64,000 nucleotides of DNA from Ostreococcus lucimarinus. Taxonomy: Eukaryota. Both the position numbers and the translations under genes were made by a program. Each line of letters opens with the position of its first letter. The first letter of the stretch is position 1. Below, piece after piece: positions 28,251 to 64,000 of this stretch. The notes beneath the pieces are model-generated. The model saw only the letters and a program-made list of their open reading frames with translations. It was not told the origin of the DNA and did not search any database. The stretch lies in NCBI GenBank assembly GCA_000092065.1, contig CP000582.1, one strand, 5' to 3'.

Positions 28251-29624
28251 ATGGGAGGTCGCAAGAAGACGTCGTTTGTGGATAAAAAGAGCGCGGTGAC
28301 GTACGCGTTGCTCCCTAACCACGACCGACAAGCGCACAGCCTCGGCCTTCCTAACACATGGGTCCGGACGGACAATAACCAGGGTGCGGACCCCTTCGAT
28401 GACGGCGATCACGTTGGGCGGGAACTCGAACGTGAGCTCCGAGAAAGCCATTCACAACACGTGTCCGCGGGCGATCTTTCAAATGAAAAGGACACAAACA
28501 ATAAATTGACGGCATCAGAGAAGTTGGAACTAGGACTTCCAGACGACGGCTATGATTACACTAAACACTTAAGAGAGTGCGACCCAGATAAAGTACGTAC
28601 CGTAGAAAGTGATTATGCAAATCCACGCAGTGAGATATTTACGAAAAGCATTGACCACGCAAGAACCGAGTATGCGGGCGGGGCAATGAACCAAGGCGAG
28701 TGTGATTTTCACACCTTGCACGAACAAGATAACATTGCCGACGTGTTACAACTTCTTGACGACATAAGCCAAGGCGGATCAATGGAAACCTGCGCTTACG
28801 AGGAGTTACAAGACGATATAATTTTCTTGGCTAGTCAGCGTAAAAGTGAAGAGCGGTGCTCATCGCCTTTCTTGCCCCGAAAAGTAGAGCCGTTGAGTCC
28901 GCAAACCCATCGTGCAGCCACGAAAGTATTAGTAAGAAGTTCAAGTGATGCGGTAGGGAACGAACGTTCAGACGATAGCCATTTTCTGCGTATGATCCAT
29001 AACTACGATGACGACGATCTTGGCGCTACGCCGATGAAAGATGAGAGCAATATTAGATCTGAGAACACAAAATGGCAGACTCTTGAGCAGTTGAACTTCA
29101 ACGATGGAAATTTACAAAAGCATAACGTGGATGCACGCACAGTGAAAAGTTATGCGCTCAATCATAGTGAGGAACAAACTCCACGAAATGCCTACTTAGA
29201 AGAAAGCATTCTGGACAAAAGAACTCAAGCGACCCACATGTATGACTGCGAAAGCATTTTGAGTTTGCACAGTAACTCAAACCATCATCCAAAACTTCTT
29301 GAAGGGAGACTTCTGAGTGAAGAACGTAAATTGAAAACGCCAGATCAACAGAGTGCAAGCATTCCGGGCATTCATACTTGTTTTCCTCTCGGTATGAAAG
29401 CATCATCAGAAGCTGAATTCGATTGGCGCAGCTGCACAGCTCGTAAAGGAGAAAGTGCTCAACAGAAAAAGGAGCGCAAAAATGCCGTCAAAATGGGCCG
29501 TCGACAAGCTCGAAGTACGAAAAAGGGGTTGAAAGAAAGTTTTCAATATTTCAAGCAAGCAGGAGCTGGGGGCGGTAGCTCTGGGGATGTAAGAGCAAAG
29601 ATATCTGTGACAAAAATGCAGTAG
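28251..29624 (+). CDS. LTV1: LTV1-like ribosome biogenesis factor homologue
   Basis: ATG at 28251. The N-terminus MGGRKKTSFVDKKSAVTYALLPNHDRQ matches the conserved LTV1 start (MxKKKFIDKKxAVTFxLVxRSQ). The middle is acidic and low-complexity. The C-terminus is basic (QQKKERKNAVKMGRRQARSTKKGLKESF) as in LTV1. Confidence 0.55.
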   Translation: MGGRKKTSFVDKKSAVTYALLPNHDRQAHSLGLPNTWVRTDNNQGADPFDDGDHVGRELERELRESHSQHVSAGDLSNEKDTNNKLTASEKLELGLPDDGYDYTKHLRECDPDKVRTVESDYANPRSEIFTKSIDHARTEYAGGAMNQGECDFHTLHEQDNIADVLQLLDDISQGGSMETCAYEELQDDIIFLASQRKSEERCSSPFLPRKVEPLSPQTHRAATKVLVRSSSDAVGNERSDDSHFLRMIHNYDDDDLGATPMKDESNIRSENTKWQTLEQLNFNDGNLQKHNVDARTVKSYALNHSEEQTPRNAYLEESILDKRTQATHMYDCESILSLHSNSNHHPKLLEGRLLSEERKLKTPDQQSASIPGIHTCFPLGMKASSEAEFDWRSCTARKGESAQQKKERKNAVKMGRRQARSTKKGLKESFQYFKQAGAGGGSSGDVRAKISVTKMQ

Positions 29625-56600: not shown

Positions 56601-59600
56601 GAGTGTTAGCCTTCGGAAATCCAAGCAGGCATATTTGTTATATAGTTCGCTCGTTATAGATATTTTGGGAGCCAAGACTTTTGAGCACGTGAAAAAATTT
56701 TGAAATTGTATTAATGCGTCGTGTAATACGCCTGCGCAGTGATACATGTGCAGATCGACGCAAGAGTTTGGCTCAATACCGTGTCGTGATACACGGATGA
56801 ATGCACTGTCCAAACTCCGATTTGTGTGGAGGAATCTGCCTGAGCGCCCGTGTAAGATCGCCATCACTTGAAACTTTGAGCAATACCATTGGAGGATATT
56901 CGACGCAATGTGACCAGTTCCACCTGTCAAGTACAGTGAGATTTGCTTTAATGGGCTGTCGAAGTCTCTTCGGATGAGTGATCCTGATACATGGTTTCGT
57001 ACTCCTTGTACGTTTTGTCGTGAAACTTCCGTGATACTCTTCAAGTAAGCATGTTTATTTTGAATAACCACAACAGAATTATTTACATTTGGTGATTCCC
57101 ACGGAACAATAACGTGTCTCACAGACGCTGAAGATGGATGTGAGACTGAATCAACAATTGATATCATACCTTCAGATAAAGCCACACGCATCATAGAACT
57201 CGCATCCAGCTGTTCCATTTCTCGAGTGGTGTGGACACTCACTTTCGTCGCTCGACGCAGAGCATGAGCTAATTGTAGGAAATCTGAAACACCCCTTACG
57301 TTTGTAAACGTACTGTGCTTTCTCAACTCGGATGCGATAATATTCGATCTCAAGCCATGCCCCAAGAGAAGCGGTTGAAACGCGATTATTGAGTATTTGA
57401 ATGCAGATGGTTTGGTATGGGACATTCCCGTGGGGTTTGAAAATTGATCCGTCCTCATCCGTCGAGATACAATATGGAACAAAATCGTACTGTACGCTTT
57501 ATTGGACGCAAAATGGTCACTTAATATATCGCTTCGGTCATTTAAGTTCAGTGATGGAAGTGTTGACACGATGGCTCTCGTACGAATCTCGGATTTTCTG
57601 TGAGTGTACGAAGTCACTCCGGACGGTAGGAAGAGATGGAGAGGCGGATCCTGTGATCTGATGGAGCCCACAAAGCCCAGTTGCAGACTACAATCTTCGT
57701 GTTTAGCGCGATTGTGTCCACAAAATACATCGGAGGTCGTCCTTCCTACCGATCCTACGCCTCCAAACGACTGATACAAGCTTGGGGCACCGTAGTCACT
57801 CAATCTCAGCATGCCAGAGATTTGCGCATAACACACGTGCAACCCTTTTGAAACCGTGTTGGATGTGGTAAAACTTGTACTCGTACCTGAGGAGAGGGTG
57901 CAGTATCCGCTTTCATCGAGTTTCAATGATAGATCTACATTGGGTTTGTCCAAGTAGAGTGACGTCGAAATAATTACGCTTTGCACAGCGTGACGTATTG
58001 GATGGTACAGCATGGTGTGCTGCTCAGGATGTCCGACCAAGAACATGACGCGATACAGAACTGTCGCTGGGCATATCGTTCTATTACGAACTCGGTGATG
58101 CTTGTATAAGACGCTATCAATTTTTAGGATAAAGGACTGCGAGGTCTTTCCGGTGGACATTGAGCAGGCCCATCTCAACGACGACGATAATTGCGATAAT
58201 TGACCATGTCTACCAGCGATCTGTAGAGTGGACCAGCGAACCGAATAGTGATGCGAGGCCAAAAGCCGTGATATTGTATGCGCATTTGTTCCTTGAAAAG
58301 CAAATGCACTCGTACCGAAATAACGTAACGATGAGTTCTCCACCAAAGATACATTCTCCCTCGGTAACGAAACCAAAGATCCACTGCTGTCAATATCACA
58401 CACGATATGCGTGTTCAATCGTCTTAGATGTAAAATTTGAGAGAATAAATGATTCGTTGACTCTTGAATTGTAAAGACAAGGTTGATCATACCTGAAGCT
58501 GCTTCAGCATGCCCCGCGATTGACTTGCTAGCATTAATATTCACGAGTTTTGCTGATTGAATTGCCTCAAGAATGGCATTTATTTCGATTGGGTCGCCGA
58601 GGGCAGTGCCGGTTCCATGCATAGAAATATTAAATGAGTTTGAACACTTGTGACAGCTTCGTAGTGCTTGACGCAATAGGCTGACTTGACTTGTACCATT
58701 CGGCGTCGTAAGCGCGCTCGATCGACCGTCTTGATTAATTTGCGTTGCGCAGACTTGCACTACTCGGGCCGGCGAGAAATCGCTTTTTGATAAATCTACC
58801 ACAGCCAGCAGGCAAGTATACTCAGATCGTACGTAGCCATCAGCAGAAATATCCAAAGTTTTACATCGACCTTCGAGCGACAACATACCGAGTCTGTAAA
58901 GCGCATCAGTCACATTTTCACATATGATATGATTCACTGCCGCAGGCAGGCCGAATGTACACTTTGTGAGGGCGAAGAAGGTCGAAACCAAGTGCAATGC
59001 CACGAGTGAAGACGAACAGGCGGTATCCACGGATACACACGGACCATGAATGTCGAAGAAGAATGCAATTCTGCCACTTGCTACACTATGGGCCTGACCC
59101 ATGACGGATTGATCATTCACAGAGAGCGATACATCGCCAAACTGTGAAATACCCAACGCCAAGCTAGTGTTTTTCGTCTTTTGGTACGATGAGGTCGACG
59201 ATAGCAGTTTCTGCGCATAAAACAGAAGATTCTGCTGCTGTGAGTCCATCGAAATGATTTCTTGCAGTGTTAGGCGAAAACATGATGAGTCGAAGCCACG
59301 AAGATCGTGATGATTACCAAAATTGTATGATAATCCGTCGTCGTGAAGTGTAGTGTTCAAATCTTTTGCAACATCAAATTTTGAAACCTGATGACACGAT
59401 ATAGCATCCGACGTTTGCAATATGTTCCCGCTTGTGGCAACTATACCAATCTCAATTGGCGAAATACTATGCGAAATACTTCGAACATCTTGATTTGGCG
59501 AAAATTGTACTTTCTCAGACGATATATCATCCGCTGAGTTATGCAGTGCTGAATTACTCTTAAGACGAAACACATCTACTGGTTTTCGACTCGGAGTAAC

Positions 59601-62600
59601 AGACTTACTACCGTCGTGTGCAATTATAAGCAAATCCAATGTGCGAAACCAGTCGTCGTCGGTCCATTCCGTTCTCCTGAAACACTCGTGCTGGTTTAGT
59701 AGACATTGAATCTCGCCCACAAACCCAGAGCGCAGCAGTGCAAGTTCACCATTATTGGTCACCGCTCTCATCACACACAGTGGGTGTTGGGTTCTTGTCG
59801 TATGCCATCGTAACTCGTGCGCCATCGATGTCGTATTATAGAAAATCTCACTGCCGTAAATTGTTGGAGATCGTGCGTTGTATGAATCGTACGTAGGATT
59901 ATCATAGCTCATTATCTGACAGCCAAATTTTGAGAAAAGACTTTTCAGCAAATATTGATATCTTTGTTTGCTCAAGTTTTCCACGACGAGTAGGCGAAGA
60001 CTCGAAGCATCAAAGCTAGATGAGAACTCGCTGCGCACCATGGACGCACCGATAGATTCCGGCGCTATAAGAATAGTTACGCGCTCTCTAGCGATTGAAC
60101 GATGAATTGTCCCAGAATCGGATTCATTTATGACAATTGAGCCTTTTGCATTTAAGACCGCAGTCGCCGTTGTGATGTTCAACAATCCCGCTTTATTTGC
60201 AAAGTGTAACGAAATATCAGTACAGTTAATGCTCAAACTCAGCTGCAAGTTTCTGATAAATGAATAGTGCATGTGAGTGCTGAAAAGTGTCAGTTTTGTA
60301 TGACCTGTAGCGTGCATGTGCACTACAAAGGGTGAAGTATCGACAGGCATAATACATGGATAATCTAATCCTTTCCCGGGGACTTTTTGAGAATATTGTA
60401 GTCTAATATTCGAGATGTTCTTTCCTAGTGCAGTGGGAGGCCTTGTGAAAACATACTTTCTCAAGAGCGTAGTAGAACCAAATATTACATGCGGTGAAAA
60501 CGACAAAACTTCTGCATCAGGAATGCTATCTGAGTCTCTGTGAACCAGCAGTACACCATCCAGCGAAGCAACGACGTAGTGGAGAAGAAGTCGAAGGTAA
60601 AAGTTTGACGTCACTGCATACACGCGCAGGCGAGAGTGTCTGACTTCCGGAATTAGGTTGAATATGTATTCGCGGTACGTGGTCATATGTTGGTCAATAT
60701 CCAAGTATATGCATACATTGCTCGAAGTAACATATAAAGGTTGGGAAATATAGATCGTCTTCACATTTGTGTTCGTCTGTGCGCTTTCATTCCGTGATTT
60801 TTGGATTGATTGCGACAGTCTAGCTCGCATTAGCCGAGAAGTGTGGGAATGTTGGAGAGAAGTACCTCTTTCCATACGTATGCTGCTTTTTAGAATGAGG
60901 CTCTTCAACAGAGTTTTCCCACTATGTAACTGCTCTTCACACGAAGACCGGCAGGTATGTTCAAGACAGGCAATCAAATTGTCGACTGTGCCTCTGCAAA
61001 ATTTGCTTTCGTCATACATCAGGGTGCCGCTAATGTCGGCATGAGAATCTTGAAGTCCCAACCAGAGCGAAAAAACGGCTTGTTGAAAATGCTCTACTCT
61101 GGACTCCATACATTTTGATCGACGCAGATTGCTGACAAAGCTGAAGCATGTCTCAAACATAGGATTGTTAGCATGAAAGTCACATCCATGTCGAGTGCAA
61201 AGCAAATGGATGATATCGTTGATGGGGACTAGAGGGCATTCACGAGCAGCGTTTATCATGTGGTGCACATTCGCGACAATATGTGAGAAATTGATGTTCA
61301 TGTCGACCACACATCGGCCTGGTACAACGGCAGCGTAACACCCTATGGTTGATTGTTGTGAAAGTGAACTTGCGCATCGTAAATCGAATGAGTTTCCGAG
61401 AGTGATTCTTGCCAGACGTGATGCCTGAACCTGGCGTTCAGTTATGGTGGCGATCACAATTAGCCAGCAAGAAAGCAAAATGGTGCAAGTAGTAGTACCT
61501 AAGATTCTTGCGGTAGACTTCAATAAACGCGTTGCGCTTGCACTGAGTTTGAAAGGAACTCCAGCGCCTCGCAAGATGTCTGGTGAATTTAGGTCAGTCA
61601 TGAAATCATGTCGCAGCTTTGAGGCATTGAAACTACTTCGCTTATTTTCTGTGAGAACGTTCTCCCAGTGTATCAACGCTTTATTTCTCAGTTGTGCACG
61701 ACGATCTTTTTGGTCTATCAGGTGATGAAACCAGGAGGTGTACGAATCGAACGTCCCAGGTCGATCGCATGTAAGTGTGTTTGATCTACACGCATGGGCG
61801 ATGATAGCTAAAGAGAGCGCGTCACCAGCAATGTGGTGCAAAACTACCAGCAATTTTGACTCGCCCAGGCGATACAAACGAAGTGGTGCGTCGTTGAAAA
61901 TATCGAATGGATATGACTTCGCTTCAGCTATGACGATCTCTGAACGTCGGTGAACCGAACCACAATTCTTTCTATCACACCTTAAGATTGGTATGGAAGA
62001 AATTGTCTCTCCTGATTTTATGGATACACTATCATTGGGGGAAAAACGCATTCGTAGAATTGGATGGTTTAGTAACATACAGTTGAAGACCTCAATTATA
62101 TCCTTCTCCATAGAGATGTCCACGATCATTGACATATTGTAAGCACAACTTGACGGATAGAGCTTGAAGTGCAGTACAAATATTTTTTGTTCTTGGCTTG
62201 ATACCAGGACGCTGTCGTCTTTTACGTTTGCATGAGCTTCACTTTGGGAGACTGCAGTCGCGACCTGATTCATTTCGAGTCGTTTTATCAATTCCTCCAT
62301 TGATAAACTTTCAGTCAACAAGCTGGCTGGTATGCGACATCCGAGTTGCTGTTGAAGCCTAGCAAAAAATTCAGTTATCCCTAAGGAATCCATCCCACTC
62401 TCTATGAGAGTTTTGTCTTTCATAAATGAGTGGAAACTAACATCGCGGTAGCATGCGGAGACGATTTCGTACAACGATAGTTGGGCACCGTTGTGATTGA
62501 ACTCAGATGGCACATCCGGTTTCTTATGGTTTGTTTTTCTTTTGCGCAAGTGTGACCTTGATACTGACTGGTGCTCTAAATAGTGGAACTTGGAACTAGA

Positions 62601-64000
62601 TGAATTTCGCGCTACCAGCACATCCCAATGGCCGACTTCATTGCGATACCTCTCCATGTAGAAAAGTTCAATGTGTAGGGTAATGCATTTCATCTCACGT
62701 GAACGATGATGTATAAGTGTCTTTGAGTCTTCAAATAGCTTGCTCGGTAGAGCGAGGCCGGATTTTGACAATGTGCGCCCATACAAACTCTGTGATGAAG
62801 GACGGAAACACAATCGCCGTGCTGATTGAGATTGTCTTGTGAAATGTGATGCACATCGAGTCAAACGTGCTTCGAATGCGAGCTGTCCGCAGGCTTCTGC
62901 ACTGTTGAAAGTTCCATCGTGCGTACTTAGAGAGACAGTCCAGACATCTCGTGCGCATGTTTTCGTGCGATGAATACACTTTGTGATCAGGAAACGATCG
63001 TCATTGCCCAGCATATTAAGGGTCTGAAGATAACTCTCGATGTGTGCGCCAATTCCATGCATGTGAGCGTGGATGCACAAAATTATCTTGCAAGTCCCTT
63101 TCAAGTGTAGAAAATGGCCACGCATGTTTATCATCGGACTTCCACTGTCTTCAGCTTGATTAAATTCTAGTCTATGCCATAAAAATTCCATATCAGTGGT
63201 TCCCAAATGTTTACACCATTCATCTGAAGCAGCCACGATGTGTGCGTTTGTTCCAGAGTATCCAAACGAGCTTATCGATTTTAAGGCTGGGTTTAACGCG
63301 CATCGGCCTCGATTGAATCTCAATACATTCACATACTCCTTTACACTATCAAGAACAATTGGATTCATGTTGCGCAAAGACAATAGAAATCTACTTAAGC
63401 GCATATCATAAAGTGTCATCACTAACCCATGGATTCCTGAAGACGCTTCGCTGTGCCCATGTAGCGTCTTACTTGCCTGGAAGACGACGGGAGAGCGACC
63501 CACACAGTATACTCGTTGAATTGCAGCTATCTCGATGGGATCACCGAGCTGCGTACCTGTGCCATGTAACTCAGACTCATCTACGCCATTTCCTTCGACA
63601 TTAATGCCTGAGTGCGATGCACAGGATTGAATTAGCTCAAATTGAGCGTTGCCGTTCGGTGCCACCAAGGAACTAGTCCTTCCATCTTGGTTTATTTTGC
63701 TTGCTTTGAAGTATCCTACGTTTTCACTGATATCGTTCGATGCAGCGTGATCCACGCGACGTTTTGCAAGAAGCAGGCCTGCATAATTTTCGGCCCGACC
63801 ATATCCGTCGGCTTCGACGTCCATCGCTTTACATCTGCCATCTGATGATAGCATTCCTGCTGCATTGCAGACTATTGAAGTTCTTGGATCAAATATTAAG
63901 TTGACCCCGAAGGCCAGTTGTTCACAATCTCGATAATGATCATCACAAACACATGAAAAGTGCACTGCAACTAACGATGAAGAACACGCGGTATCAATAG
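29676..64000 (-). CDS. giant modular type I polyketide synthase / NRPS hybrid megasynthase, AT-less (trans-AT-like), intronless, N-terminus outside window
   Basis: Single stop-free minus-strand frame, stop TAA at 29676-29678. It enters the window inside a KS (first residues ...GMLSSDGRCKAMDVEADGYGRAE...). KS signatures (DTACSSSLV / HGTGT.LGDPIE / GH.E.ASG) recur at least 8 times, plus one degenerate copy. Recurring DH (H...G....P), KR (TGG.G.IG ... Y..AN) and ACP (G.DSLG) domains are present. There is one ER (LNFRDVL ... HGTTGGVGLA), one C domain (HHIAGDA), a degenerate A domain and a PCP. No GHSxG/AFHS acyltransferase motif was seen anywhere. Confidence 0.95.
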   Translation of the reverse strand, partial: IDTACSSSLVAVHFSCVCDDHYRDCEQLAFGVNLIFDPRTSIVCNAAGMLSSDGRCKAMDVEADGYGRAENYAGLLLAKRRVDHAASNDISENVGYFKASKINQDGRTSSLVAPNGNAQFELIQSCASHSGINVEGNGVDESELHGTGTQLGDPIEIAAIQRVYCVGRSPVVFQASKTLHGHSEASSGIHGLVMTLYDMRLSRFLLSLRNMNPIVLDSVKEYVNVLRFNRGRCALNPALKSISSFGYSGTNAHIVAASDEWCKHLGTTDMEFLWHRLEFNQAEDSGSPMINMRGHFLHLKGTCKIILCIHAHMHGIGAHIESYLQTLNMLGNDDRFLITKCIHRTKTCARDVWTVSLSTHDGTFNSAEACGQLAFEARLTRCASHFTRQSQSARRLCFRPSSQSLYGRTLSKSGLALPSKLFEDSKTLIHHRSREMKCITLHIELFYMERYRNEVGHWDVLVARNSSSSKFHYLEHQSVSRSHLRKRKTNHKKPDVPSEFNHNGAQLSLYEIVSACYRDVSFHSFMKDKTLIESGMDSLGITEFFARLQQQLGCRIPASLLTESLSMEELIKRLEMNQVATAVSQSEAHANVKDDSVLVSSQEQKIFVLHFKLYPSSCAYNMSMIVDISMEKDIIEVFNCMLLNHPILRMRFSPNDSVSIKSGETISSIPILRCDRKNCGSVHRRSEIVIAEAKSYPFDIFNDAPLRLYRLGESKLLVVLHHIAGDALSLAIIAHACRSNTLTCDRPGTFDSYTSWFHHLIDQKDRRAQLRNKALIHWENVLTENKRSSFNASKLRHDFMTDLNSPDILRGAGVPFKLSASATRLLKSTARILGTTTCTILLSCWLIVIATITERQVQASRLARITLGNSFDLRCASSLSQQSTIGCYAAVVPGRCVVDMNINFSHIVANVHHMINAARECPLVPINDIIHLLCTRHGCDFHANNPMFETCFSFVSNLRRSKCMESRVEHFQQAVFSLWLGLQDSHADISGTLMYDESKFCRGTVDNLIACLEHTCRSSCEEQLHSGKTLLKSLILKSSIRMERGTSLQHSHTSRLMRARLSQSIQKSRNESAQTNTNVKTIYISQPLYVTSSNVCIYLDIDQHMTTYREYIFNLIPEVRHSRLRVYAVTSNFYLRLLLHYVVASLDGVLLVHRDSDSIPDAEVLSFSPHVIFGSTTLLRKYVFTRPPTALGKNISNIRLQYSQKVPGKGLDYPCIMPVDTSPFVVHMHATGHTKLTLFSTHMHYSFIRNLQLSLSINCTDISLHFANKAGLLNITTATAVLNAKGSIVINESDSGTIHRSIARERVTILIAPESIGASMVRSEFSSSFDASSLRLLVVENLSKQRYQYLLKSLFSKFGCQIMSYDNPTYDSYNARSPTIYGSEIFYNTTSMAHELRWHTTRTQHPLCVMRAVTNNGELALLRSGFVGEIQCLLNQHECFRRTEWTDDDWFRTLDLLIIAHDGSKSVTPSRKPVDVFRLKSNSALHNSADDISSEKVQFSPNQDVRSISHSISPIEIGIVATSGNILQTSDAISCHQVSKFDVAKDLNTTLHDDGLSYNFGNHHDLRGFDSSCFRLTLQEIISMDSQQQNLLFYAQKLLSSTSSYQKTKNTSLALGISQFGDVSLSVNDQSVMGQAHSVASGRIAFFFDIHGPCVSVDTACSSSLVALHLVSTFFALTKCTFGLPAAVNHIICENVTDALYRLGMLSLEGRCKTLDISADGYVRSEYTCLLAVVDLSKSDFSPARVVQVCATQINQDGRSSALTTPNGTSQVSLLRQALRSCHKCSNSFNISMHGTGTALGDPIEINAILEAIQSAKLVNINASKSIAGHAEAASGMINLVFTIQESTNHLFSQILHLRRLNTHIVCDIDSSGSLVSLPRENVSLVENSSLRYFGTSAFAFQGTNAHTISRLLASHHYSVRWSTLQIAGRHGQLSQLSSSLRWACSMSTGKTSQSFILKIDSVLYKHHRVRNRTICPATVLYRVMFLVGHPEQHTMLYHPIRHAVQSVIISTSLYLDKPNVDLSLKLDESGYCTLSSGTSTSFTTSNTVSKGLHVCYAQISGMLRLSDYGAPSLYQSFGGVGSVGRTTSDVFCGHNRAKHEDCSLQLGFVGSIRSQDPPLHLFLPSGVTSYTHRKSEIRTRAIVSTLPSLNLNDRSDILSDHFASNKAYSTILFHIVSRRMRTDQFSNPTGMSHTKPSAFKYSIIAFQPLLLGHGLRSNIIASELRKHSTFTNVRGVSDFLQLAHALRRATKVSVHTTREMEQLDASSMMRVALSEGMISIVDSVSHPSSASVRHVIVPWESPNVNNSVVVIQNKHAYLKSITEVSRQNVQGVRNHVSGSLIRRDFDSPLKQISLYLTGGTGHIASNILQWYCSKFQVMAILHGRSGRFLHTNRSLDSAFIRVSRHGIEPNSCVDLHMYHCAGVLHDALIQFQNFFTCSKVLAPKISITSELYNKYACLDFRRLTLCSSISCLFATRGQLGYVAANAFMDSSSNMCRNVGSSIISIQWGAWSNGGMVDEVVSSRYIKSGISMLLPTDAVRLLVQNIDINCTLLLCHIGMNHFNIGYSSTCGVYFCSGNLKLTSNPGKYSKAENSSYQINSSSRVLRTRNHIEADVLKILKSVTNCQDVMDASIRWDFDSFSAIEFSEILSASFDIKLPLTLAFDFVSYVDVAHYIFDKMHDNVITMGPLQTSKISSKETIILSYVTGSYPDVQNEAADLISHVPFAKWDILVDGPKWKTSSIFGSFLFPQTSFFDFELFQISQAESRRIDVQQRLALNDTLKCVHMIDDANLSGILVAISSMDHCGLDISKTGFATDAAFSVVPGRVSFHHNLGGVSIAIDTACSSSLVAVDVARRYLRDEGNHIIVYGVNVILLQSTMSLFAVTGMLADDGRCKSLDVCADGYSRAEASHACLLHSGAKQKLPTKTSGYVCSILHSIINQDGRSSALTAPNGQAQQRALVELLHGSRAGHVECSYLHSTGTPLGDPIEIGAYLGGLVHFESHSHAVQLEAVKCRVGHGEPASGVLTLSQVAKSLISSNTGNVSLRVMNPLVEDRVCTHAAIVINRQCHQMEFLADCPKFVTTSAFAFQGTNCMIALTLGFESHNVTSVLKNLKVQWNVDIFTPHPQIQYIPAKGLIELQFKHLHSNYLLDHTVKDTCILPNTAILEIFLSAHAGLFSTCRVAGAANQLTCAPIPLSSKQRHRKIHLRIEDYKSRIVIQHTMHACAHIADVPNRAHTRCSIESKNTFAASKYVYSRTARIPRWMHIEQMFAFEPNVMDCSLQLRACTSVVDTPNVLLLPVGVKMATISNCSGNSMLSCRISLKNCGESDHCMQNATRNFTVSLSCASFRRARFDADIKLKRQAKIKVIYTNSLYRKDTMGRKDAINFSTILCTNPIQRASLKFESGVNTTQLISSSFCALQNVATHVQVAELGLSTTHTPCISSAVETVCKIACEEISTPYYIKSMGSYDITRNMGCRDHTIPQCSYIDSLGTEQTTISHKVVSVRFLEAQRVKATISSRYLPRILDSTFSTDTMQFDGGILMSGGLGALSTIIARHIYTNKPRTGELICASRSGRSARFDLNHSCPFMEISVHKIDVASWADFSATFAAPNLACEYVLHASGLLYDGLSVHQNPNKIRTVCAPKHRAAEKLQCAFSLTALRAWLVFSSTSHVLKSTGQANYAAANAMTDSFAQNQTQCGNVWKSIQWGAWDCTDGMSTPTVLQRLHDLGVGSVDEKSALCMLDKILSSKGLSIVLVNKFKELPHQRRPRARKLHEHTNLSKNERGFVERDAGKDIPVKMPMRSFEDIRLSVSAIVSSVMGMRVQDDVSLVEMGIDSIVSVDIRDQISSALNSDLPVTLVFNYPTVRDISAYLATLLSYQDSVPSLQSNLMLEAASNDDSIHSIPILSSLLPNSDNHMGTRWSTDVDHTIGKSVRCGVTIESPDRFDCSYFNVGRQEALYIDPQHRIVLMLVDNCVSVVKDMDNSWGVGVGISSAEYATLCAYSESNFLGTGTIASVASGRISYTFALSGRSVCVDTACSSALICVTMFHRTLDTHMRGCCLGGINLTLLERSSLIFEMSKMLSADGHCKTLDASADGYVRAEAGMMHILLWRHTLVSNSIILHGSAANQDGRSSSLTAPSGLAQEAVMKLATQRRDVSVETIQLHGTGTILGDPIELSATMSAYSYSSYTVALQANKSHCGHAEPASGSINILKASESVSSSKCISIRLLRCINTHISETFNQAHKNSMRSPRAIVPLLNAHFSSETHASVSAFAFQGTNAHAILQNRIKRATNLPIRWSMRLLQRDRIWITPTLPQRLHSLTVAKSTHVVMQGNIISTNNTGLFDHSVHGKAILPAASMLLLCSSAVRMFVETKIRNMCDVTIPTARVILPANGKAQINDIRIDTTSSALEMYSESILFFKCLWKCTRSTKVYQTHEYANPLVFDNNTMVCTSRSSIKIDFFHDYHSSSLDNTFQSCAALHSPKSFSSYIPTGLRELYLSNAFTDVIDRTTYVKIPLTTKISREPLSEADYSMYADNFSIGSVIKFRMKSSRIRASIHKVHKNTLWNLVRYRASKHLSDLHGHSFQYFPWASADSSCLNRTALAVISHVSARSYRIDTHIPRHTYSWSMYSSPLPKNSNIYSKMKTCEIAATYLKIEAMGISATKHLPGIGKLQNDDEVHVIPSRIPNIFICENNSYYGTSLRNGVSISGATGAIGSCLSLFLLHSDASNLSLSSRRGWSAHIAKLRVHSRFGQSIVRSFKSDRGIAREGLTSIDRNRINTFVYASGSLCDAVVLRQTPETMSTVTSAKVLGYVRDHALANIQAQRSIACSSITGFIYSFGQMNYSISNNVLDECVKLMFNSGFSSSSVQFGAWTDAVFGMARLDAHLEKRLLASINVAHGLFMLNLSMLNACTVPTYIASRLPALTSPSTPNIVSDSIQTKTSSYSFDTIADFLRHAIMSSIDMETYTYIDDAQPIMQLGLDSLALADLRSSINAKFQIDLPIISMFDYPTVHELSKAIFSFTDARTTSDSVISLDLKSKSLGLNPHEGTGSNVHKISNISLRYPNNIKNLQSLRTSLVTGAELQRRLSTRFDVELLSGSTRFAVLLRDIFYFDNTIFHLTPQETICMDPQQRHLLNCCIECLHGVSDTKIYHHMGVFIGVMWNDYQFILRSTKWAFYAYAGTGNGISFLASRPSFTFGMNGPSIAIDTACSSSMVAAHLACASMDGSHASSTLSGGTQCILIPDTFVTLSSLGAIAYDGRCKTLDAGADGYGRGEAFGLLHLEPVQPAHRYESRHDFVLSACTVNQDGRSSSFTAPNGPSQQKLIQVALLRIENASSRSCYLSLHGTGTSLGDSIELSSLMQLQSCFSFLLIGTSKSSLGHTEGSAGVVGILDSIVCSTHAVNFGMRLCRNLNPHLSVFTHVASEGNVHIARAMTTAPQIELTASSSFGMSGVNAHTIIRAIPSKLTHRCCSTRARLLCSQMFHAGVGTLYSNVQLISVFKSASRAVFTVNICRPAWSSLHDHSVNHTPVLPAAASLIIPIIPLDDLLIDSVLQMKTILLIPIVLKQLDTISVVTYRDSTMRLMLRSGESATTSKFRKTNDGSNIREPFQQLGHCIRSRRGALKTKMSKYVGSACATVGAAHLIDCSMHILYCLMDKENNDVVHVPAVIHIFQLQQLPLEHQFESSSSAKKKDAPESNHTTSNLALLRRLQCKPLSTMNRAFERENLNKKVQSSVLYALMWCAVHHIKHVCPQTPHSYNLGRSMDTNTSTSYRYAPSYAAMMQNVHASIRLVGLATSSTPVGRAGENMSNVISASVIHTISMVSVADLNQTYHLDVHSDSPLSLKRASSHFKKAECESRAEPIQSQYLARARYVPMIHGCRKVPLNNFVLQPSPRGAIKDLTPVPSIALDSGITVSKPFVRTRILAVGLNFRDVLNILDMYPGVTEPPGTDFSGIIDDVYSHSHGDAIFGLTTGCLGDVAYVHRSLFSIKPPRVNFIEASAIPTVFLTVDECFSSIRRLKTTPAHLLVHGTTGGVGLAIKSICSMMGDSLSGTSSNVKKRHLMRYLGIPCMSNSRSTKFSQSVFLSSLSRSCPVDVVLNTLTSPGMIAASLSILNVHATFLELSKRGIWSADAFEKENYKATYEVKAIDHQSIAELSFRLSLLGLFMCAGLIQPSICLSNEFRFIRQSMREMTRASHIGKVVVYHKTVMSGHQLVTGGTGAIGILLTRWLLGIGANSVILLSRNGHNNGIMRLPRDSRLHFTLENADISCSEFSTIFRSLSLSDSVGIFHTSGVLRDALICDQTSAHLAEVSAPKVSGVKRLHSALKDAYLVKTFLNFSSLAATIASIGQSNYTYANSWLDQWSSTCKERGMVNESIQWGAWLAGDGMANSDGISRRMERVGLQYIQPSVAMSIIQTRLDHSILHHNFTLLSQQLIATGLNWSRFMSFAVKNRFLYGKKQNFNQAGNVDSKNTASAKDTEVLVVQKLLQIFKEVSGHELTADSAIMEAGVDSLGAVESRNAIADAFTITDLPSTLIFDYPTVKSIAGLILGAENEIKRTETELPIDSPTRSIEVRISSVSSPGQYQHALDDVSGVPENRWDIRADDYALIRFGRFLHNIEYFDIALFSMRRAEATAVDPQQRILLARALDGRAHAVNGQYSEGCGVVVGISSTDYSAITSRAGKLQATGGSLSVACGRISFTYNLRGTCASIDTACSSSLVGSHVARNAVLTGECDSMICCGVNITLNPTTTIVFRTAGMLADDGRCKTLDMAANGYVRGEGSTLLLLTPHSDGVRDDYCMFYASASSVNQDGRSSSLTAPHGPSQQSVILHTMLQSGNDNSSSGGIELHGTGTSLGDPIEVGAARTVLSSLKRLPVVTFSAMKTRCGHTEPASGGMGLCGIVDCIFRLNTPALVHLCQLSTHIQSILNQDTAERCGIALPRQATQSAWQCDAHAVNRGVSAFAFQGTNAHVSVRRDYVMKSLPDASVMQHSIECWISHAAFGLRLVHAVETSECLRIQLPPLKTRHIDRDHCVRGRLVLPATSFLELTLTCVKQLHTMTVNVVRRTQIHAACLLDTWRNDALSFKISQTTGSISVSSQRAGHTSCKVVQTMLTQRTPSPKVYYANVSKSSLDLHFKVHSKKVQTLDQSFAAELDAHVQSLSALRLNTFSDDSFELHLPVSLEICTHQTSLARSRDHALSRFSPQKMQSDHIAQQATENQLAMHELLGKKVASHSEPAAMGSERYYGGRQGRHAIDMIYRATWKTENTYRGPLLRTEGVTNVYSHLAAGRQSASRVASLAVQSLHASSNLCVIRTTATELVSACPRLCADTQSSIGRCIPVAGAMWGIFRSGAHEMSQRLVCVDLGASSIVHAKATDFLHSNSDSNEVHAKSISNRHVRTPTLSKVCPNLHAKMLWRDPRRAMAKHIAQCDSNALLHPCSDIYTGGVGGIGALIYEWNASICDRPFVLVGRSGRGKHIAPAKFTSLLTIQRVNLCVRSETERLVSCSVRNVGRVLHMSGVLKDSILMKQTFSTVSIAFANKTQGAQAVCHENLPQMSLTHVFFSSIAALLGSPGQTNYAGANALLDTLAQLGTTMGWRCMSLQWGPWGGSYGMAVRSAVGTPRNFGSLGIEVIDPHTALRTLRTLIQPPNMFSIYAVCPLRATGLHAWSVSTSHSAVSPPNAPYVDQNSTQLKIKISAGERGVPSCVIHGDEIAGRVASIVNDAVGRPLDAKEPLLDAGLDSLGAVELRSRLNDEFAVQLPSTVVFDHPSVYALAEAVAGELSHGKSNYGSAQVLRNSTIDVTYSAQVCISSVSSPGQYQHALDDVSGVPENRWDIRADDYALIRFGRFLHNIEYFDIALFSMRRAEATAVDPQQRILLARALDGRAHAVNGQYSEGCGVVVGISSTDYSAITSRAGKLQATGGSLSVACGRISFTYNLRGTCASIDTACSSSLVGSHVARNAVLTGECDSMICCGVNITLNPTTTIVFRTAGMLADDGRCKTLDMAANGYVRGEGSTLLLLTPHSDGVRDDYCMFYASASSVNQDGRSSSLTAPHGPSQQSVILHTMLQSGNDNSSSGGIELHGTGTSLGDPIEVGAARTVLSSLKRLPVVTFSAMKTRCGHTEPASGGMGLCGIVDCIFRLNTPALVHLCQLSTHIQSILNQDTAERCGIALPRQATQSAWQCDAHAVNRGVSAFAFQGTNAHVSVRRDYVMKYLPDASVMQHSIECWISHAAFGLRLVHAVETSECLRIQLPPLKTRHIDRDHCVRGRLVLPATSFLELTLTCVKQLHTMTVNVVRRTQIHAACLLDTWRNDALSFKISQTTGSISVSSQRAGHTSCKVVQTMLTQRTPSPKVYYANVSKSSLDLHFKVHSKKVQTLDQSFAAELDAHVQSLSALRLNTFSDDSFELHLPVSLEICTHQTSLARSRDHALSRFSPQKMQSDHIAQQATENQLAMHELLGKKVASHSEPAAMGSERYYGGRQGRHAIDMIYRATWKTENTYRGPLLRTEGVTNVYSHLAAGRQSASRVASLAVQSLHASSNLCVIRTTATELVSACPRLCADTQSSIGRCIPVAGAMWGIFRSGAHEMSQRLVCVDLGASSIVHAKATDFLHSNSDSNEVHAKSISNRHVRTPTLSKVCPNLHAKMLWRDPRRAMAKHIAQCDSNALLHPCSDIYTGGVGGIGALIYEWNASICDRPFVLVGRSGRGKHIAPAKFTSLLTIQRVNLCVRSETERLVSCSVRNVGRVLHMSGVLKDSILMKQTFSTVSIAFANKTQGAQAVCHENLPQMSLTHVFFSSIAALLGSPGQTNYAGANALLDTLAQLGTTMGWRCMSLQWGPWGGSYGMAVRSAVGTPRNFGSLGIEVIDPHTALRTLRTLIQPPNMFSIYAVCPLRATGLHAWSVPTSHSAVSPPNAPYVDQNSTQLKIKISAGERGVPSCVIHGDEIAGRVASIVNDAVGRPLDAKEPLLDAGLDSLGAVELRSRLNDEFAVQLPSTVVFDHPSVYALAEAVAGELSHGKSNYGSAQVLRNSTIDVTYSAQVCISSVSSPGQYQHALDDVSGVPENRWDIRADDYALIRFGRFLHNIEYFDIALFSMRRAEATAVDPQQRILLARALDGRAHAVNGQYSEGCGVVVGISSTDYSAITSRAGKLQATGGSLSVACGRISFTYNLRGTCASIDTACSSSLVGSHVARNAVLTGECDSMICCGVNITLNPTTTIVFRTAGMLADDGRCKTLDMAANGYVRGEGSTLLLLTPHSDGVRDDYCMFYASASSVNQDGRSSSLTAPHGPSQQSVILHTMLQSGNDNSSSGGIELHGTGTSLGDPIEVGAARTVLSSLKRLPVVTFSAMKTRCGHTEPASGGMGLCGIVDCIFRLNTPALVHLCQLSTHIQSILNQDTAERCGIALPRQATQSAWQCDAHAVNRGVSAFAFQGTNAHVSVRRDYVMKYLPDASVMQHSIECWISQLSSRATVALSTLTMACVSIRFNATVNALTSSPLQVASDATCLILDDRTTELSLKNVVLSTVYASKVLDAYLKSNKVLVYGSGYKVIDAQSNAIASTHATVRAGEHGVGLNANTVAAYADAEQGFVKFREMHGGLSSADIHVESNEYHEKPQHRLRCTLLDTFTGGNSVAYVRTVELYRRSCTVQYAQHDTLMCCIILSDHRFKYNYSRQNWSTFTPEVFLHISTDSVLCTSTSPSSSRSSVPNVEYLYALRWEASPLRVNVAPNGDTCATTTVRHTLCNYRRSVHRCGSLPTVVNILHSICALTTSSESKHLCVLSKSAPVTKRIFPSPISSIHKHISDLTLSTLPRVFCVENKNTTYAVCTGDSARIHPSGISNTTARLRHVSAVGHLAFTPNLCSTHSSPANMRRNNQCKNNQTEVHGAGEIGKLVYITALLNGQRLIRLTNRSGRCSYSVVVWNGSSSHSVTVDSVDNCHYSDNTWHNSRVQVNRSFFASGVLRDAIATKQTAYTIRVVVSPKLIGSLASIRDPTSLSVQTDYYSSISVLLGTFGQVNYVAANSSLDAHCNYAHHQGLDKVSVQWGAWVNLTGMMKQSALQLDSLTRFGIGSVPTKVGIHILSILNSVMIQDATIVANMFLWDKLSIPLLSQGVSTDSKRTLLCTDRTHPSTLSETQSLVSDHVRRVLGHTIDANMPFIDAGLDSMYLTELSRSIEICFDVPLPSTVAFDHPTITSLSKFIHKTTLRQKIDDCKPSAKEPMRIVVQDGIISSVACIAVHTGDADCKHIMHPVQFCGAIANGIDAIRKIPIDRWDVERIFSFTGISRKRDFVYHEYSRHGSFLRQLDVFDSNFFGIGRSDVRSLLEPQQRELLKACHEVTDVPYSDKSTRVYEQKISVYVGICTNDSDSVARDEAFRVMFTDSGCSAHDKLSNIAHGMSESTYAFASNRISHTFGFQGESISIDCASASGLVCIHLATSSSKVNVPSDPEYANSSIAASSNIILHRQLSDLHIARQMFPADGRCKTFDAQADGFERGEGVGAVMICTYKATSSKFMLVTLLGSSCIHKGGGASLRALRGPAIEYKVHRALLDANILPADVAFVEASGLGEPLGDAIEIGAYQRIFCFEDPSRTSNIGFGSLHTNLGHLDGASGMISLIKSALMSHALLTSPLVHFRKLNNLLLGQHACTTAEKMGHTWRDVNLDKRSHFPMLKGPTSGGIIGTSSFGYGGSMAHVLTNVRRDCRAFQEPRHRQNVLLTRCNAANQNTHVDANRLTFQLQKCIWNELHSSLSRNEPCRRRHPLSMSEPLHNVLRDIGFSHCGSGEFRENTIKGIAASVDAAIKVVTRETFSVGLSAGERICLWIESQVKKYTPLTDSNSWMPRLRLHEPKVKGKILFVLSSPRSGSTLLQMILNSHPSIFAPQELYLLNFETMYQRFESISRGHSWAFEGLRKAIVELRGCFADEADKIMHDMHSMSTKNVYEVLQNWCGDRILVDKSPPYSWSLDTLERAESIFEDVYYIFIHRHPYATIHSMSKETFKSRHDILENEKLLQLNGRKRLELLSASTIEQIWSHMDKLWARGNSNIIDFLRNVESTRQLEICYEDLVSDPTSHIDKICDFLKLPSCTNMTNPYSYNNAKMFEPIEPGGKGAADPNILSHCFINPTLANAWKDAASPGNLSEQSQRIAATLRYRLPQWKHRNSPVSRSFITRLNGNTTTPIVVFLNDVDCGTSFYSSLASSIKSAAFVVTTDWQSSTAASVSELAAMYVQRIRAYLDINNGDEVILVTRGLGVYIAREFVRLCETKQHVCADPSWREQASDAIQSNPKILGLVTLFTKEYEVLVSQQNNSDVGKILSYAALLASSYPEVKNESASVNASLRRVFIESNPNSVNECPNETLSILCCTQLLYSSRDPLFRVNPDFMSDIPICVISELEGISNELSLCFGIEHKYLDLRIEEKIDESALSDAINLLSKMTPK
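29679..30460 (-). other. C-terminal thioesterase-like alpha/beta-hydrolase domain of the megasynthase (nucleophile position apparently Gly)
   Basis: The N-terminal TE-type motif PIVVFLNDVDCGTSFYSSLASSI is present. At the expected GxSxG nucleophile elbow the sequence reads LVTRGLGVYIAREF, with no Ser by eye alignment. Confidence 0.5.
30610..31450 (-). other. sulfotransferase (ST) domain of the megasynthase
   Basis: The PAPS 5'-phosphosulfate loop KILFVLSSPRSGSTLLQMILNSHP (codons located at 31395-31409 by direct reverse translation) and a 3'-PB-like IHRHPYATIHSM are present. The domain is about 280 aa and sits between the terminal KS0 and the TE-like domain, as in CurM / olefin synthase. Confidence 0.7.
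31900..33240 (-). other. degenerate non-condensing ketosynthase (KS0) preceding the ST domain
   Basis: The active-site region reads ISIDCASASGLVCIH (codons at about 32699-32728) versus canonical IDTACSSSLV. The catalytic Cys position is Ser. HGTGT is replaced by EASGLGEPLGDAIE, and GHxEAASG is partly retained as NLGHLDGASG. Confidence 0.6.
35587..44262. repeat. intragenic tandem repeat: 3,702-bp unit x about 2.34 (copies 35587..39288, 39289..42990, partial 42991..44262), >99% identical
   Basis: Identical antisense ORFs recur every 3702 bp (35610/39312/43014 and others). The protein segment KS-[DH-KR-ACP-KS]-[DH-KR-ACP-KS] is repeated with only isolated substitutions (KSLPD/KYLPD, SVSTSH/SVPTSH). 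Homology breaks at 44262/44263 and 35586/35587. Confidence 0.9.
45390..46260 (-). other. enoylreductase (MDR-type ER) domain within a fully reducing DH-ER-KR-ACP module
   Basis: The motifs ILAVGLNFRDVLNILDMYPG and LLVHGTTGGVGLAIKSI (codons at 45881-45903) are present. The domain is followed by KR QLVTGGTGAIGILLTRWLL (about 45348) and ACP EAGVDSLGAVESR (about 44460). Confidence 0.7.
59165..60740 (-). other. degenerate adenylation-like (AMP-binding superfamily) region plus PCP-like carrier domain
   Basis: Weak A-core remnants are spaced as in A domains: A3-like SPFVVHMHATGHTKLTLFSTH, A4 FDAS, A6-like GELALLRSGFVGEIQ, and A7-like WFRTLDLL. A carrier-like HHDLRGFDSSCFRLTLQEI follows, corresponding to GGDSI/GGHSL. 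Confidence 0.4.
60900..62210 (-). other. NRPS-type condensation (C) domain
   Basis: The motif LLVVLHHIAGDALSLAIIAHAC (the HHxxxDG core; codons at about 61820-61840 verified by reverse translation) lies within an approximately 430-aa region. It follows an ACP (ESGMDSLGITEFFARL). Confidence 0.65.

What the first reader, a model, noticed from the sequence alone, without database searches (positions are those of the whole stretch)
59165..62210. Embedded NRPS-like C / degenerate-A / PCP module inside the PKS
A bona fide condensation domain (HHIAGDA) directly follows an ACP. It is followed by a region with A-domain motif remnants in the right order and spacing, but badly eroded (A3 ATGHTKLT, A4 FDAS, A6 GELALLRSGFVGE, A7 FRTLD). 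A PCP-like DSS carrier follows. The C domain could form an amide/ester link (amino-acid or amine incorporation). The A domain looks unable to adenylate, so it may be vestigial. Alternatively a trans-acting A may be used.
Basis: partly seen in the sequence, partly recalled or inferred. Interest (0 to 1): 0.7.

Follow-up and report, generated by a model that had tools for sequence, protein, structure and literature searches.

The report
Decayed peptide-synthetase module inside algal PKS
Inside a giant polyketide synthase gene of the marine green alga Ostreococcus lucimarinus there is a well-preserved peptide-bond-forming (condensation) domain. It is followed by a probable, almost erased and inactive amino-acid-activating domain and by no carrier domain, so this looks like a leftover module whose condensation domain was already noted in 2015.

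Summary
The window is from Ostreococcus lucimarinus CCE9901, in the low-GC outlier region of an 895-kb chromosome. The finding lies in the giant trans-AT-type PKS published as OluPKS3.

- **C domain: confirmed.** It matches PF00668 at E 6e-23 over its full length, carries HHIAGDA, and starts about 20 residues after ACP6.
- **Already in the literature.** Shelest et al. 2015 list "KS-ACP-C-KS" for this protein and say "no A domain is predicted".
- **The 506 residues after C: probably a dead A-core relic.** They have no library-wide match in Pfam, PDB or 1.84 billion proteins. Only a targeted A-domain profile detects them (HMMER P 0.002, hhalign P 0.009). The match sits on the canonical C-to-A diagonal, and six rival domain profiles score at background. 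Catalytic motifs are lost and there is no room for the C-terminal subdomain with the A10 lysine.
- **Consequence.** The module cannot load an amino acid in cis. Most likely the chain passes directly from ACP6 to KS7. A condensation domain that still works with partners supplied in trans remains possible.

The find is ordinary to modest, and partly already known.

The parts
63216..64000 (-). C-terminal two thirds of ketosynthase KS6. It is cut by the window edge, and the reading frame continues upstream.
   Evidence: PF00109/PF02801 hits. IDTACSSS lies at the window edge. Metagenome contig L003 extends the ORF upstream through KR-ACP and the KS6 N-terminus.
62271..62477 (-). Acyl carrier protein ACP6 (residues about 497-565; GMDSL with Ser527), the presumed donor carrier for the C domain.
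   Evidence: PF00550 hit. GMDSL motif. 108 bits against the ACP profile built from this protein, whose seven sequences include ACP6 itself, and 17.5 bits against the independent PCP profile.
60954..62207 (-). Condensation (C) domain, residues 587-1004. The catalytic motif HHIAGDA is at window 61818-61838.
   Evidence: PF00668 at E 6e-23. Local C profile E 7e-22. 14 of 17 invariant columns kept. Best PDB relatives are elongation-type C domains (Txo1 6oyf, PCP-C 7kvw).
60729..60953 (-). Linker between C and the A-like region, residues 1005-1079, rich in Ser, Thr, Arg and Gln. It includes the last turns of the C domain.
   Evidence: No family hit. Composition. It accounts for the roughly 20-30 extra residues relative to the canonical C-to-A spacing.
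59553..60728 (-). Probable relic of an adenylation-domain core (A1 to about A8), residues 1080-1471. It appears catalytically dead and lacks the C-terminal subdomain. The best-supported stretch is residues 1220-1336 (window 59958-60308, A3 to pre-A5).
   Evidence: HMMER with filters off: 2.5 bits, P 0.002, 11 of 3000 shuffles reach it. hhalign: 353 collinear columns, score 28.2, 2 of 400 shuffles reach it. Only the A profile among seven domain profiles scores above background (z 5.3). C-to-A offset is 459-470, against 439 +/- 8 in 27 reference didomains. The only NCBIfam hit is an acyl-CoA ligase on the same diagonal, E 0.08.
58176..59477 (-). Ketosynthase KS7 (residues about 1497-1930), with DTACSSS and HGTGT intact.
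   Evidence: PF00109 starts at about residue 1511. Motif alignment with the other KS N-termini and active-site motifs.

Best explanation
The region is the remnant of a hybrid NRPS module (ancestrally C-A-PCP) embedded between modules 6 and 7 of the giant trans-AT-type PKS OluPKS3 of Ostreococcus lucimarinus.

**Shown**
- The C domain is full-length and keeps its catalytic HHxxxD motif and most invariant residues.
- The next roughly 390 residues carry only a faint, A-domain-specific profile signal at the canonical distance from C.
- No carrier domain exists between C and KS7. About 25 residues separate the end of the A-like alignment from the start of KS7, so the A C-terminal subdomain (A9-A10, with the catalytic lysine) and the PCP are absent.

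**Inferred**
- The A relic cannot adenylate. The A4 Asp, the A5 Glu and the A10 Lys are missing, and of the A3 P-loop only T-G-x-x-K remains.
- The module therefore cannot select, activate or tether an amino acid in cis.
- Most likely the polyketide chain passes from ACP6 directly to the catalytically intact KS7. C plus the relic would then act as an in-frame spacer that must stay open because eight modules lie downstream.
- The C domain's better preservation suggests it either lost its function later than the A domain or keeps a role, structural or catalytic, with trans partners.
For: **Identity of the gene**
- Flanking proteins are exact O. lucimarinus CCE9901 proteins on an 895,087-bp record.
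- Shelest et al. 2015 Table S2 lists '...KS-ACP-C-KS-KR-ACP...' and a terminal KS with DCASASG, both matching this ORF.

**C domain**
-.

**A relic**
- Profile tests.
- On the same A profile, functional ANL enzymes outside the training set score 182-510 bits, against 0.4-2.5 bits for X. The C domain scores 60-64 bits, as much as the C domain of the bacterial hybrid P0088 at 56 bits.

**No carrier**
-.

**KS6 and KS7 active-site motifs intact**
-.

**Ancestral state**
- The orthologous Micromonas RCC299 MicPKS2 is published as 'C?-A?-PCP2-KS-KR-ACP2-...', and the O. tauri OtaPKS1 as '...KS-ACP-KS...' with no C called. This fits progressive loss, and it suggests the C domain is dispensable for continuity of the assembly line.
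Against: - The A-domain homology is weak. P is only about 0.001-0.009, with nothing at library scale.
- Matches to invariant A columns are no better than in shuffled sequences. Pairwise phmmer finds no A domain.
- No orthologue sequences could be retrieved, so neither the ancestry nor the selective constraint was tested directly.
- If C were simply idle since A and PCP were lost, it should have decayed as far as A. Its intact catalytic motif argues for some retained function.
- Codon-position composition does not separate C from X.
- AF2 gave no usable model for either domain.
Confidence: 0.55

Rival explanations
1. The C domain is still an active catalyst and the missing parts are supplied in trans. 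A free-standing adenylating enzyme and carrier, or a soluble amine or amino acid, would provide the acceptor. C would join it to the ACP6-bound polyketide, with the A relic kept as a scaffold or docking platform. This would parallel the AT displacement seen in these algal PKSs.
For: - The C domain keeps HHxxxD and 14 of 17 invariant columns, while the A region has lost essentially everything. That asymmetry is expected if C stayed under selection.
- The whole PKS already depends on trans-acting ATs: no PF00698 hit anywhere in it.
- Lone C domains without an A domain are also reported in E. huxleyi EhuPKS1 and EhuPKS2.
Against: - There is no carrier to hold the acceptor or the product before KS7.
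- A soluble acceptor would release the chain and starve modules 7-14.
- O. tauri apparently lacks the C domain at the same junction.
- No stand-alone A domain or PCP could be searched for with these tools.
- The terminal Gly of HHxxxDG is replaced by Ala.
Confidence: 0.27
2. The 506-residue region is not derived from an adenylation domain. It is a lineage-specific linker or an unknown domain, for example for dimerisation or docking, and the weak A-like signal is chance.
For: - There are no hits at library scale.
- Matches to invariant columns equal those of shuffled sequences.
- Other unannotated stretches of 240 residues and more exist in this protein.
- Several test variants were tried, so the nominal P values are somewhat optimistic.
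Against: - Two scoring methods give P of 0.002-0.009.
- Jointly with the expected diagonal, 4 of 3000 shuffles reach the observed result.
- A is the only one of seven profiles above background.
- The only positive sliding windows in 11,429 residues are the four that overlap X.
- An independent NCBIfam ANL model hits the same diagonal.
- The Micromonas orthologue is annotated C?-A?-PCP2.
Confidence: 0.13
3. ACP-C works like a terminal (CT-type) releasing or cyclising condensation domain. On this reading OluPKS3 is two assembly lines fused head to tail, and modules 1-6 off-load at the C domain.
For: - Carrier-then-C with no downstream carrier is the architecture of terminal C domains (my own knowledge of fungal CT domains).
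- O. tauri models split the locus into OtaPKS4 and OtaPKS1.
Against: - The O. tauri split falls inside an upstream KS ('KS-C-term'), not at the C domain, and looks like a gene-model artefact.
- KS7 has no loading module of its own.
- The best PDB relatives are elongation-type C domains.
Confidence: 0.04
4. The region is not part of the mature protein, because it is an intron or a pseudogenised segment.
For: - Outlier-region genes have a raised intron density.
- One metagenome contig has a 1-nt deletion in an A-run at window ~59586.
Against: - There are 506 stop-free in-frame codons at 45% GC inside a 34-kb ORF.
- The same frame is intact in a second environmental contig.
- The indel lies in a homopolymer and is probably a sequencing error.
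Confidence: 0.01

Closest known systems
OluPKS3 of O. lucimarinus as annotated by Shelest et al. 2015 (BMC Genomics 16:1015, PMC4661987; JGI protein 30000)
   Same: It is the same gene. The published architecture '...KS-ACP-C-KS-KR-ACP...-KS-P-loop hydrolase', the central C domain with HHxxxD, the terminal KS with DCASASG and the near-identical modules 11-13 all match this ORF.
   Different: The paper states 'no A domain is predicted' and leaves about 500 residues unannotated. Here they are tentatively assigned to an A-core relic, and the absence of any carrier is tested. The paper's 'P-loop hydrolase' is a CurM-type sulfotransferase.
N-terminus of MicPKS2 of Micromonas sp. RCC299 ('C?-A?-PCP2-KS-KR-ACP2-...', PMC4661987 Table S2)
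   Same: It belongs to an orthologous PKS: the later modules and the terminal KS0 correspond. It has the same order, with C and then an A-like region before a KS-KR-ACP module.
   Different: Micromonas keeps two PCPs and a recognisable, though questioned, A domain, and its C motif is deviant (HHIVCE). O. lucimarinus keeps a canonical HHIAGD but has no PCP and an A domain that Pfam cannot recognise. The sequences could not be retrieved here, so homology of the two regions is inferred from the literature only.
C-A-PCP modules of bacterial hybrid PKS-NRPS lines (27-31 reference modules from Ralstonia, Bradyrhizobium, Streptantibioticus, Bacillus, Brevibacillus, Vibrio and E. coli EntF; bacillaene/pederin-type modules by my own knowledge)
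   Same: The C domain follows a carrier domain. The C-to-A spacing of 459-470 residues is close to the reference 439 +/- 8. A KS lies downstream.
   Different: Reference A domains score hundreds of bits and are followed by a PCP. Here the A score is at most 2.5 bits, and the C-terminal subdomain, the A10 lysine and the PCP are all absent.
A-less or trans-loaded NRPS modules, and the AT-docking remnants of trans-AT PKSs (my own knowledge; AT displacement in algae per PMC4661987)
   Same: A selecting or loading domain is lost or displaced while the rest of the module persists, sometimes leaving a structural remnant.
   Different: Those modules always retain the carrier domain that is loaded in trans. 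Here the carrier itself is missing.

Membership tests
NRPS condensation domain (PF00668) | Significant full-length match to the family profile | tested here: met
   81 bits against a cut-off of 30.6, E 6e-23, profile positions 7-429 of 456. Local profile 63.7 bits, positions 8-422 of 444.
NRPS condensation domain (PF00668) | Catalytic HHxxxDG motif | tested here: met
   HHIAGDA at residues 710-716. Both His and the Asp are present, and the final Gly is Ala.
NRPS condensation domain (PF00668) | Upstream donor carrier domain | tested here: met
   ACP6 (GMDSL, Ser527) ends about 20 residues before the C domain.
NRPS condensation domain (PF00668) | Downstream acceptor carrier domain in the same module | tested here: not met
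   No PP-binding hit at E<=10. PCP and ACP profiles score -2.9 and -4.1 bits on residues 991-1640.
NRPS condensation domain (PF00668) | Amide- or ester-bond-forming activity | not testable with these tools
   Needs an enzymatic assay of ACP6-C.
Adenylation domain / ANL superfamily (PF00501) | Significant match to the family profile | tested here: inconclusive
   No Pfam hit at E<=10. NCBIfam FadD3 ligase at E 0.08. Targeted profile P 0.002-0.009, z 4-5 against shuffles, and the only one of seven profiles above background.
Adenylation domain / ANL superfamily (PF00501) | Core catalytic motifs: A3 P-loop, A4 Asp, A5 Glu, A7 Asp, A8 | tested here: not met
   Under the hhalign alignment only T-G-x-x-K of A3 and T-x-D of A7 remain. 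The A4 FD, the A5 N/G/E and A8 are replaced or gapped. Retention of invariant columns equals that of shuffles.
Adenylation domain / ANL superfamily (PF00501) | C-terminal subdomain with the A10 catalytic lysine | tested here: not met
   The alignment ends at profile position 430 of 521. Only about 25 residues remain before the KS7 N-terminus.
   The FDSS lies inside the PF00109 match and aligns with the FDxxFF motif of six other KS domains in the same protein (seven including this one).
Complete hybrid NRPS module (C-A-PCP) in a trans-AT PKS | All three domains present and catalytically competent | tested here: not met
   C is present, A is at most a dead relic, and PCP is absent.

The most novel reading that the evidence does not exclude
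Motif-intact 'lone' condensation domains embedded in algal trans-AT PKSs may be working catalysts that no longer need a cis A domain or carrier. Examples are this one and those reported in Emiliania EhuPKS1 and EhuPKS2. Amino-acid or amine selection would have been displaced in trans, as happened with the AT domains, and the eroded A core would survive as a scaffold. The C domain would insert or attach a nitrogen- or oxygen-linked unit in the middle of the assembly line.
Probability: 0.2. Interest if true: 0.6.

Novelty: already known. Interest (0 to 1): 0.27.

Why it matters
The products of the giant Mamiellales PKSs are unknown. Whether the O. lucimarinus product contains an amino-acid-derived unit depends on whether this module works.

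- The analysis says the module cannot load an amino acid by itself. Structure predictions for the product should therefore not assume a hybrid peptide-polyketide unless trans partners are found.
- The published series gives a concrete, testable example of how a hybrid module may decay inside a eukaryotic megasynthase. Micromonas has C?-A?-PCP2, O. lucimarinus has C plus a relic, and O. tauri has neither.
- As a caution for annotation, the 'DSS' carrier call and the motif relics seen by eye show how easily short motifs mislead. A bisulfite-read assembly also posed as a 62%-identical homologue.

Tried and rejected
- **Homologue searches failed.** All three word-index protein searches returned nothing useful: C+X, C alone at E<=10, and C+X+KS. 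The third found only KS hits from bacteria and fungi. The exhaustive phmmer of X found only the locus itself.
- **Scans for related loci failed.** The metagenome scan returned only a 100%-identical contig. The bacterial-genome and viral scans returned nothing. Orthologue-based tests such as dN/dS or a clade profile were therefore impossible.
- **A false homologue was rejected.** The 62%-identical protein P0002 comes from a bisulfite-read assembly of the same locus.
- **Structure prediction was uninformative.** AF2 gave pLDDT 32.9 for X and 30.6 for the C domain. Because even the bona fide C domain fails without a deep alignment, the failure says nothing about X, and no fold search was run.
- **Pairwise search was too insensitive.** Pairwise phmmer of X against 136 kilo-residues of NRPS/PKS sequence gave no A-domain hits.
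- **Counting invariant columns was not significant.** The count of invariant A-domain columns matched by X does not exceed that of shuffled sequences, so it was dropped as evidence.
- **Codon-position composition did not discriminate.** G1, periodicity and amino-acid classes do not separate C from X.
- **Polymorphism data were too sparse.** There are 12 SNPs in 15 kb (8 nonsynonymous, 4 synonymous), with 2 nonsynonymous in X and none in C.
- **Specificity-code extraction was abandoned.** The equivalents of Asp235 and Lys517 do not exist.
- **Spurious Pfam hits were ignored.** Metallophos_C and DUF2508 scored E 0.04-0.2, below their cut-offs.


Full report
**Where the finding lies.** The flagged coordinates (59165-62210) sit in one open reading frame on the minus strand. 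It runs from the right edge of the window to 29676 and is at least 11,440 codons long. In what follows, residue i of this 'giant' ORF starts at window position 63965-3(i-1).
- Pfam finds nine KS domains (the first cut by the window edge), plus KR, DH, ER and ACP domains, no AT domain, one condensation domain and a C-terminal sulfotransferase.
- The ORF is about 45% GC, while the left 27 kb of the window is about 60% GC.
- Five flanking ORFs are exact matches to proteins of Ostreococcus lucimarinus CCE9901 on an 895,087-bp record. The sequence is therefore eukaryotic: a picoalga, in the low-GC 'outlier' region where Mamiellales keep their giant PKS genes.
- The gene is the published OluPKS3. 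Shelest et al. 2015 give its architecture as '...KS-KR-ACP-KS-ACP-C-KS-KR-ACP-...-KS-P-loop hydrolase'. They note a terminal KS with DCASASG and near-identical modules 11-13. [quoted passage not shown] All of these features are present in the window.

**The condensation domain is real.**
- PF00668 matches residues 587-1004 (window 60954-62207) at E 6e-23 and 81 bits, against a cut-off of 30.6, over nearly the whole profile.
- A profile I built from 31 bacterial C domains gives 63.7 bits, E 7e-22, over positions 8-422 of 444.
- HHIAGDA is at window 61818-61838. Both histidines and the aspartate are present, and the last glycine is alanine.
- Of the 17 aligned columns that are at least 90% conserved in the bacterial set, 14 are identical here.
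- The nearest solved structures are ordinary elongation-type C domains (Txo1, PCP-C didomains).
- The domain begins about 20 residues after ACP6 (GMDSL, Ser527).

It is also already in the literature.

**There is no PCP.** The 'DSS' taken for a carrier serine is in FDSSCFRLTLQEIISMDSQQQ (window 59283-59294 for FDSS).
- This stretch lies inside the PF00109 match of KS7.
- It aligns with FDCSYF...DPQHR, FDNTIF...DPQQR, FDIALF...DPQQR and FDSNFF...EPQQR of the other KS domains of the same protein. It is the standard N-terminal KS motif.
- With all filters off, a profile of 29 reference PCPs and a profile of this protein's seven ACPs score -2.9 and -4.1 bits anywhere in residues 991-1640. ACP6 as a positive control scores 17.5 and 108 bits.
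- KS7 starts at about residue 1497 (PIEIGIVATSGN).

**The 506 residues between C and KS7 ('X', residues 1005-1510, window 59436-60953).** At library scale X is an orphan.
- There is no Pfam family at E<=10 apart from two sub-threshold chance hits, and no PDB sequence.
- Among 1.84 billion representative proteins only two fragments match. One is a 100%-identical metagenome fragment. The other is a '62%-identical' protein that comes from a bisulfite-read assembly of the same locus. All 1033 differences are C-to-T on one strand, and retained C occurs only in CpG.

**Testing the A-domain hypothesis directly.** I assembled 31 NRPS A domains from E. coli EntF and six plasmid-borne NRPS loci.
- HMMER with filters off scores X at 2.5 bits, P 0.002. 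It aligns TGHTKL... (residues 1220-1336) to profile positions 176-297, running from the A3 'TGrPKG' to just before A5.
- 11 of 3000 shuffles reach that score. In a sliding scan of all 11,429 residues, only the four windows that overlap X score above zero.
- hhalign gives one collinear alignment of 353 columns (X 76-467 to profile 28-430), score 28.2, P 0.009. That score is reached by 2 of 400 shuffles and by 0 of 39 other windows of the protein.
- Against KS, KR, DH, ER, C and PCP profiles X scores at background (z from -0.9 to +0.7), while the A profile gives z 5.3.
- The hit lies on the diagonal expected for a C-A didomain. The offset between C and A profile origins is 439 +/- 8 (range 428-475) in 27 reference modules and 459-470 here. 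Only 4 of 3000 shuffles match both the score and the diagonal.
- The single NCBIfam hit for X is an acyl-CoA ligase model on the same diagonal, E 0.08.
- The orthologous Micromonas protein is published as starting 'C?-A?-PCP2'.

**Cautions on the A-domain call.**
- The number of invariant A-domain columns that X matches under the hhalign alignment (18 of 69) is no better than for shuffled sequences (13.2 +/- 6.4). The motif relics seen by eye carry little weight by themselves.
- Pairwise phmmer sees nothing.
- AF2 failed for X (pLDDT 32.9). It failed equally for the bona fide C domain (30.6), so this is uninformative.

I rate 'X is an adenylation-core relic' at about 0.8.

- A3 (ATGHTKLT) agrees with both the HMMER and the hhalign alignment.
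- A7 (FRTLD) agrees only with low-confidence hhalign columns. HMMER did not align that fragment.
- The A6 equivalent is GFVGEI rather than GELALL.
- 'FDAS' aligns to the pre-A5 stretch and is not A4.

**Can the relic work?** No.
- Functional ANL enzymes outside the training set score 182 bits (EntE), 228 bits (a PKS loading ligase, P0079) and 510 bits (P0088) on the same profile. X scores 0.4-2.5 bits.
- The A4 aspartate, the A5 NxYGPTE residues and A8 are replaced or gapped, and of the A3 P-loop only T-G-x-x-K remains.
- The alignment stops at profile position 430 of 521, with about 25 residues left before KS7. The C-terminal subdomain and its A10 lysine cannot be present.

The motif definitions are the standard A1-A10 core motifs, from my own knowledge.

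**How it most likely works.**
- Shown: the architecture is ACP6, an intact-looking C domain, a dead A-core relic, no carrier, and then KS7, whose DTACSSS and HGTGT motifs are intact.
- Inferred: the module cannot select, activate or tether an amino acid in cis. The simplest route is therefore direct transfer from ACP6 to KS7.
- On this reading C plus the relic is carried along as an in-frame spacer. The frame must stay open because eight modules lie downstream, so the open frame says nothing about X's own function.
- The literature fits stepwise loss: Micromonas has C?-A?-PCP2, O. lucimarinus has C only, and O. tauri has '...KS-ACP-KS...' with no C.

**The main unresolved point is the asymmetry between C and A.** The C domain scores as well as the C domain of a bacterial hybrid synthetase (60-64 bits against 56 bits), whereas the A region has lost everything.
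- Either A became dispensable long before the PCPs were lost, which would fit the questioned 'A?' in Micromonas.
- Or the C domain keeps a role, possibly with trans-supplied partners. I give that rival about 0.27.

Neither SNP data nor codon-position composition can decide between them. The SNP data are 12 SNPs in 15 kb against an environmental strain, 8 nonsynonymous and 4 synonymous, with two nonsynonymous in X and none in C.

**Comparison with known systems, and novelty.**
- The object is the C domain of OluPKS3, flagged in 2015.
- It resembles a hybrid C-A-PCP module of bacterial PKS-NRPS lines in domain order and spacing. It fails membership on two defining features that were tested: a competent A domain and a carrier.
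- It differs from known A-less, trans-loaded NRPS modules because those keep their carrier.
- New here are the tentative identification of the A-core relic, the demonstration that no carrier exists, and the correction of the 'PCP'.
- I file it as already known, with a modest addition. The interest score is 0.27.
- The most novel reading not excluded is that lone C domains in algal trans-AT PKSs are active with trans partners. I give that a probability of about 0.2.

Noticed in passing
window 1-29650 compared with 29676-64000: The window is eukaryotic: Ostreococcus lucimarinus CCE9901, on an 895-kb chromosome record. GC falls from about 60% to about 45% near 27-28 kb, which is the edge of the low-GC outlier region that holds the giant PKS. 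Flanking ORFs include myo-inositol-1-phosphate synthase (4469-6058), 2-oxoglutarate dehydrogenase E2 (17028-18557) and LTV1 (28251-29624).
   Followed up: yes
window about 30525-31430, minus strand (ORF residues about 10846-11147): The C-terminal 'P-loop hydrolase' of the 2015 annotation is a CurM/OLS-type activating sulfotransferase (PDB 4gbm at E 1e-52; PF13469 at E 2e-28). It follows a non-elongating KS (DCASASG, no HGTGT) rather than an ACP. The last 350 residues (window 29679-30728) have no Pfam hit. This suggests sulfation-assisted off-loading, possibly forming a terminal alkene as in curacin, but the thioesterase was not identified.
   Followed up: partly
window 35582-44273: A tandem repeat with a 3702-nt period and about 2.35 copies shows only about 4 internal mismatches. 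It encodes the near-identical KS-DH-KR-ACP modules 11-13 and is 51-52% GC, against 45% for the rest of the gene. This is a very recent module duplication, or ongoing homogenisation, and a possible source of assembly error.
   Followed up: partly
L001 (Logan SRR847306), corresponding to window 59137-63999: A contig that encodes a '62%-identical homologue' (P0002) is bisulfite-converted DNA of the same locus. All 1033 differences are C-to-T, and 62 of 254 CpG cytosines are retained. It reports CpG methylation over the C/X region and is not evolutionary divergence.
   Followed up: yes
L003 (Ga0181595_10000789) and L002 (Ga0494457_0060580), corresponding to window 49001-64000 and 59038-60519: Environmental contigs of the same species. 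L003 differs by 12 SNPs in 15 kb (8 nonsynonymous, 4 synonymous), including G1181E and Y1354C in the A-like region. L002 has a 1-nt deletion in an AAAA run at about 59586 that would break the frame; it may be a sequencing error or a natural frameshift allele.
   Followed up: partly
window 18856-21447, plus strand: An 863-residue ORF that looked to me like a hAT-family transposase sits in the high-GC flank. I judged this from the translation alone and ran no family search. A preprint reports that transposable elements are largely absent from the O. lucimarinus outlier regions.
   Followed up: no
window 62466-63200, minus strand (ORF residues 256-500): A 245-residue stretch between KS6 and ACP6 has no family match at E<=10, so module 6 reads KS-(unknown)-ACP. 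It might be a post-KS linker or AT-docking remnant, or another eroded domain.
   Followed up: no
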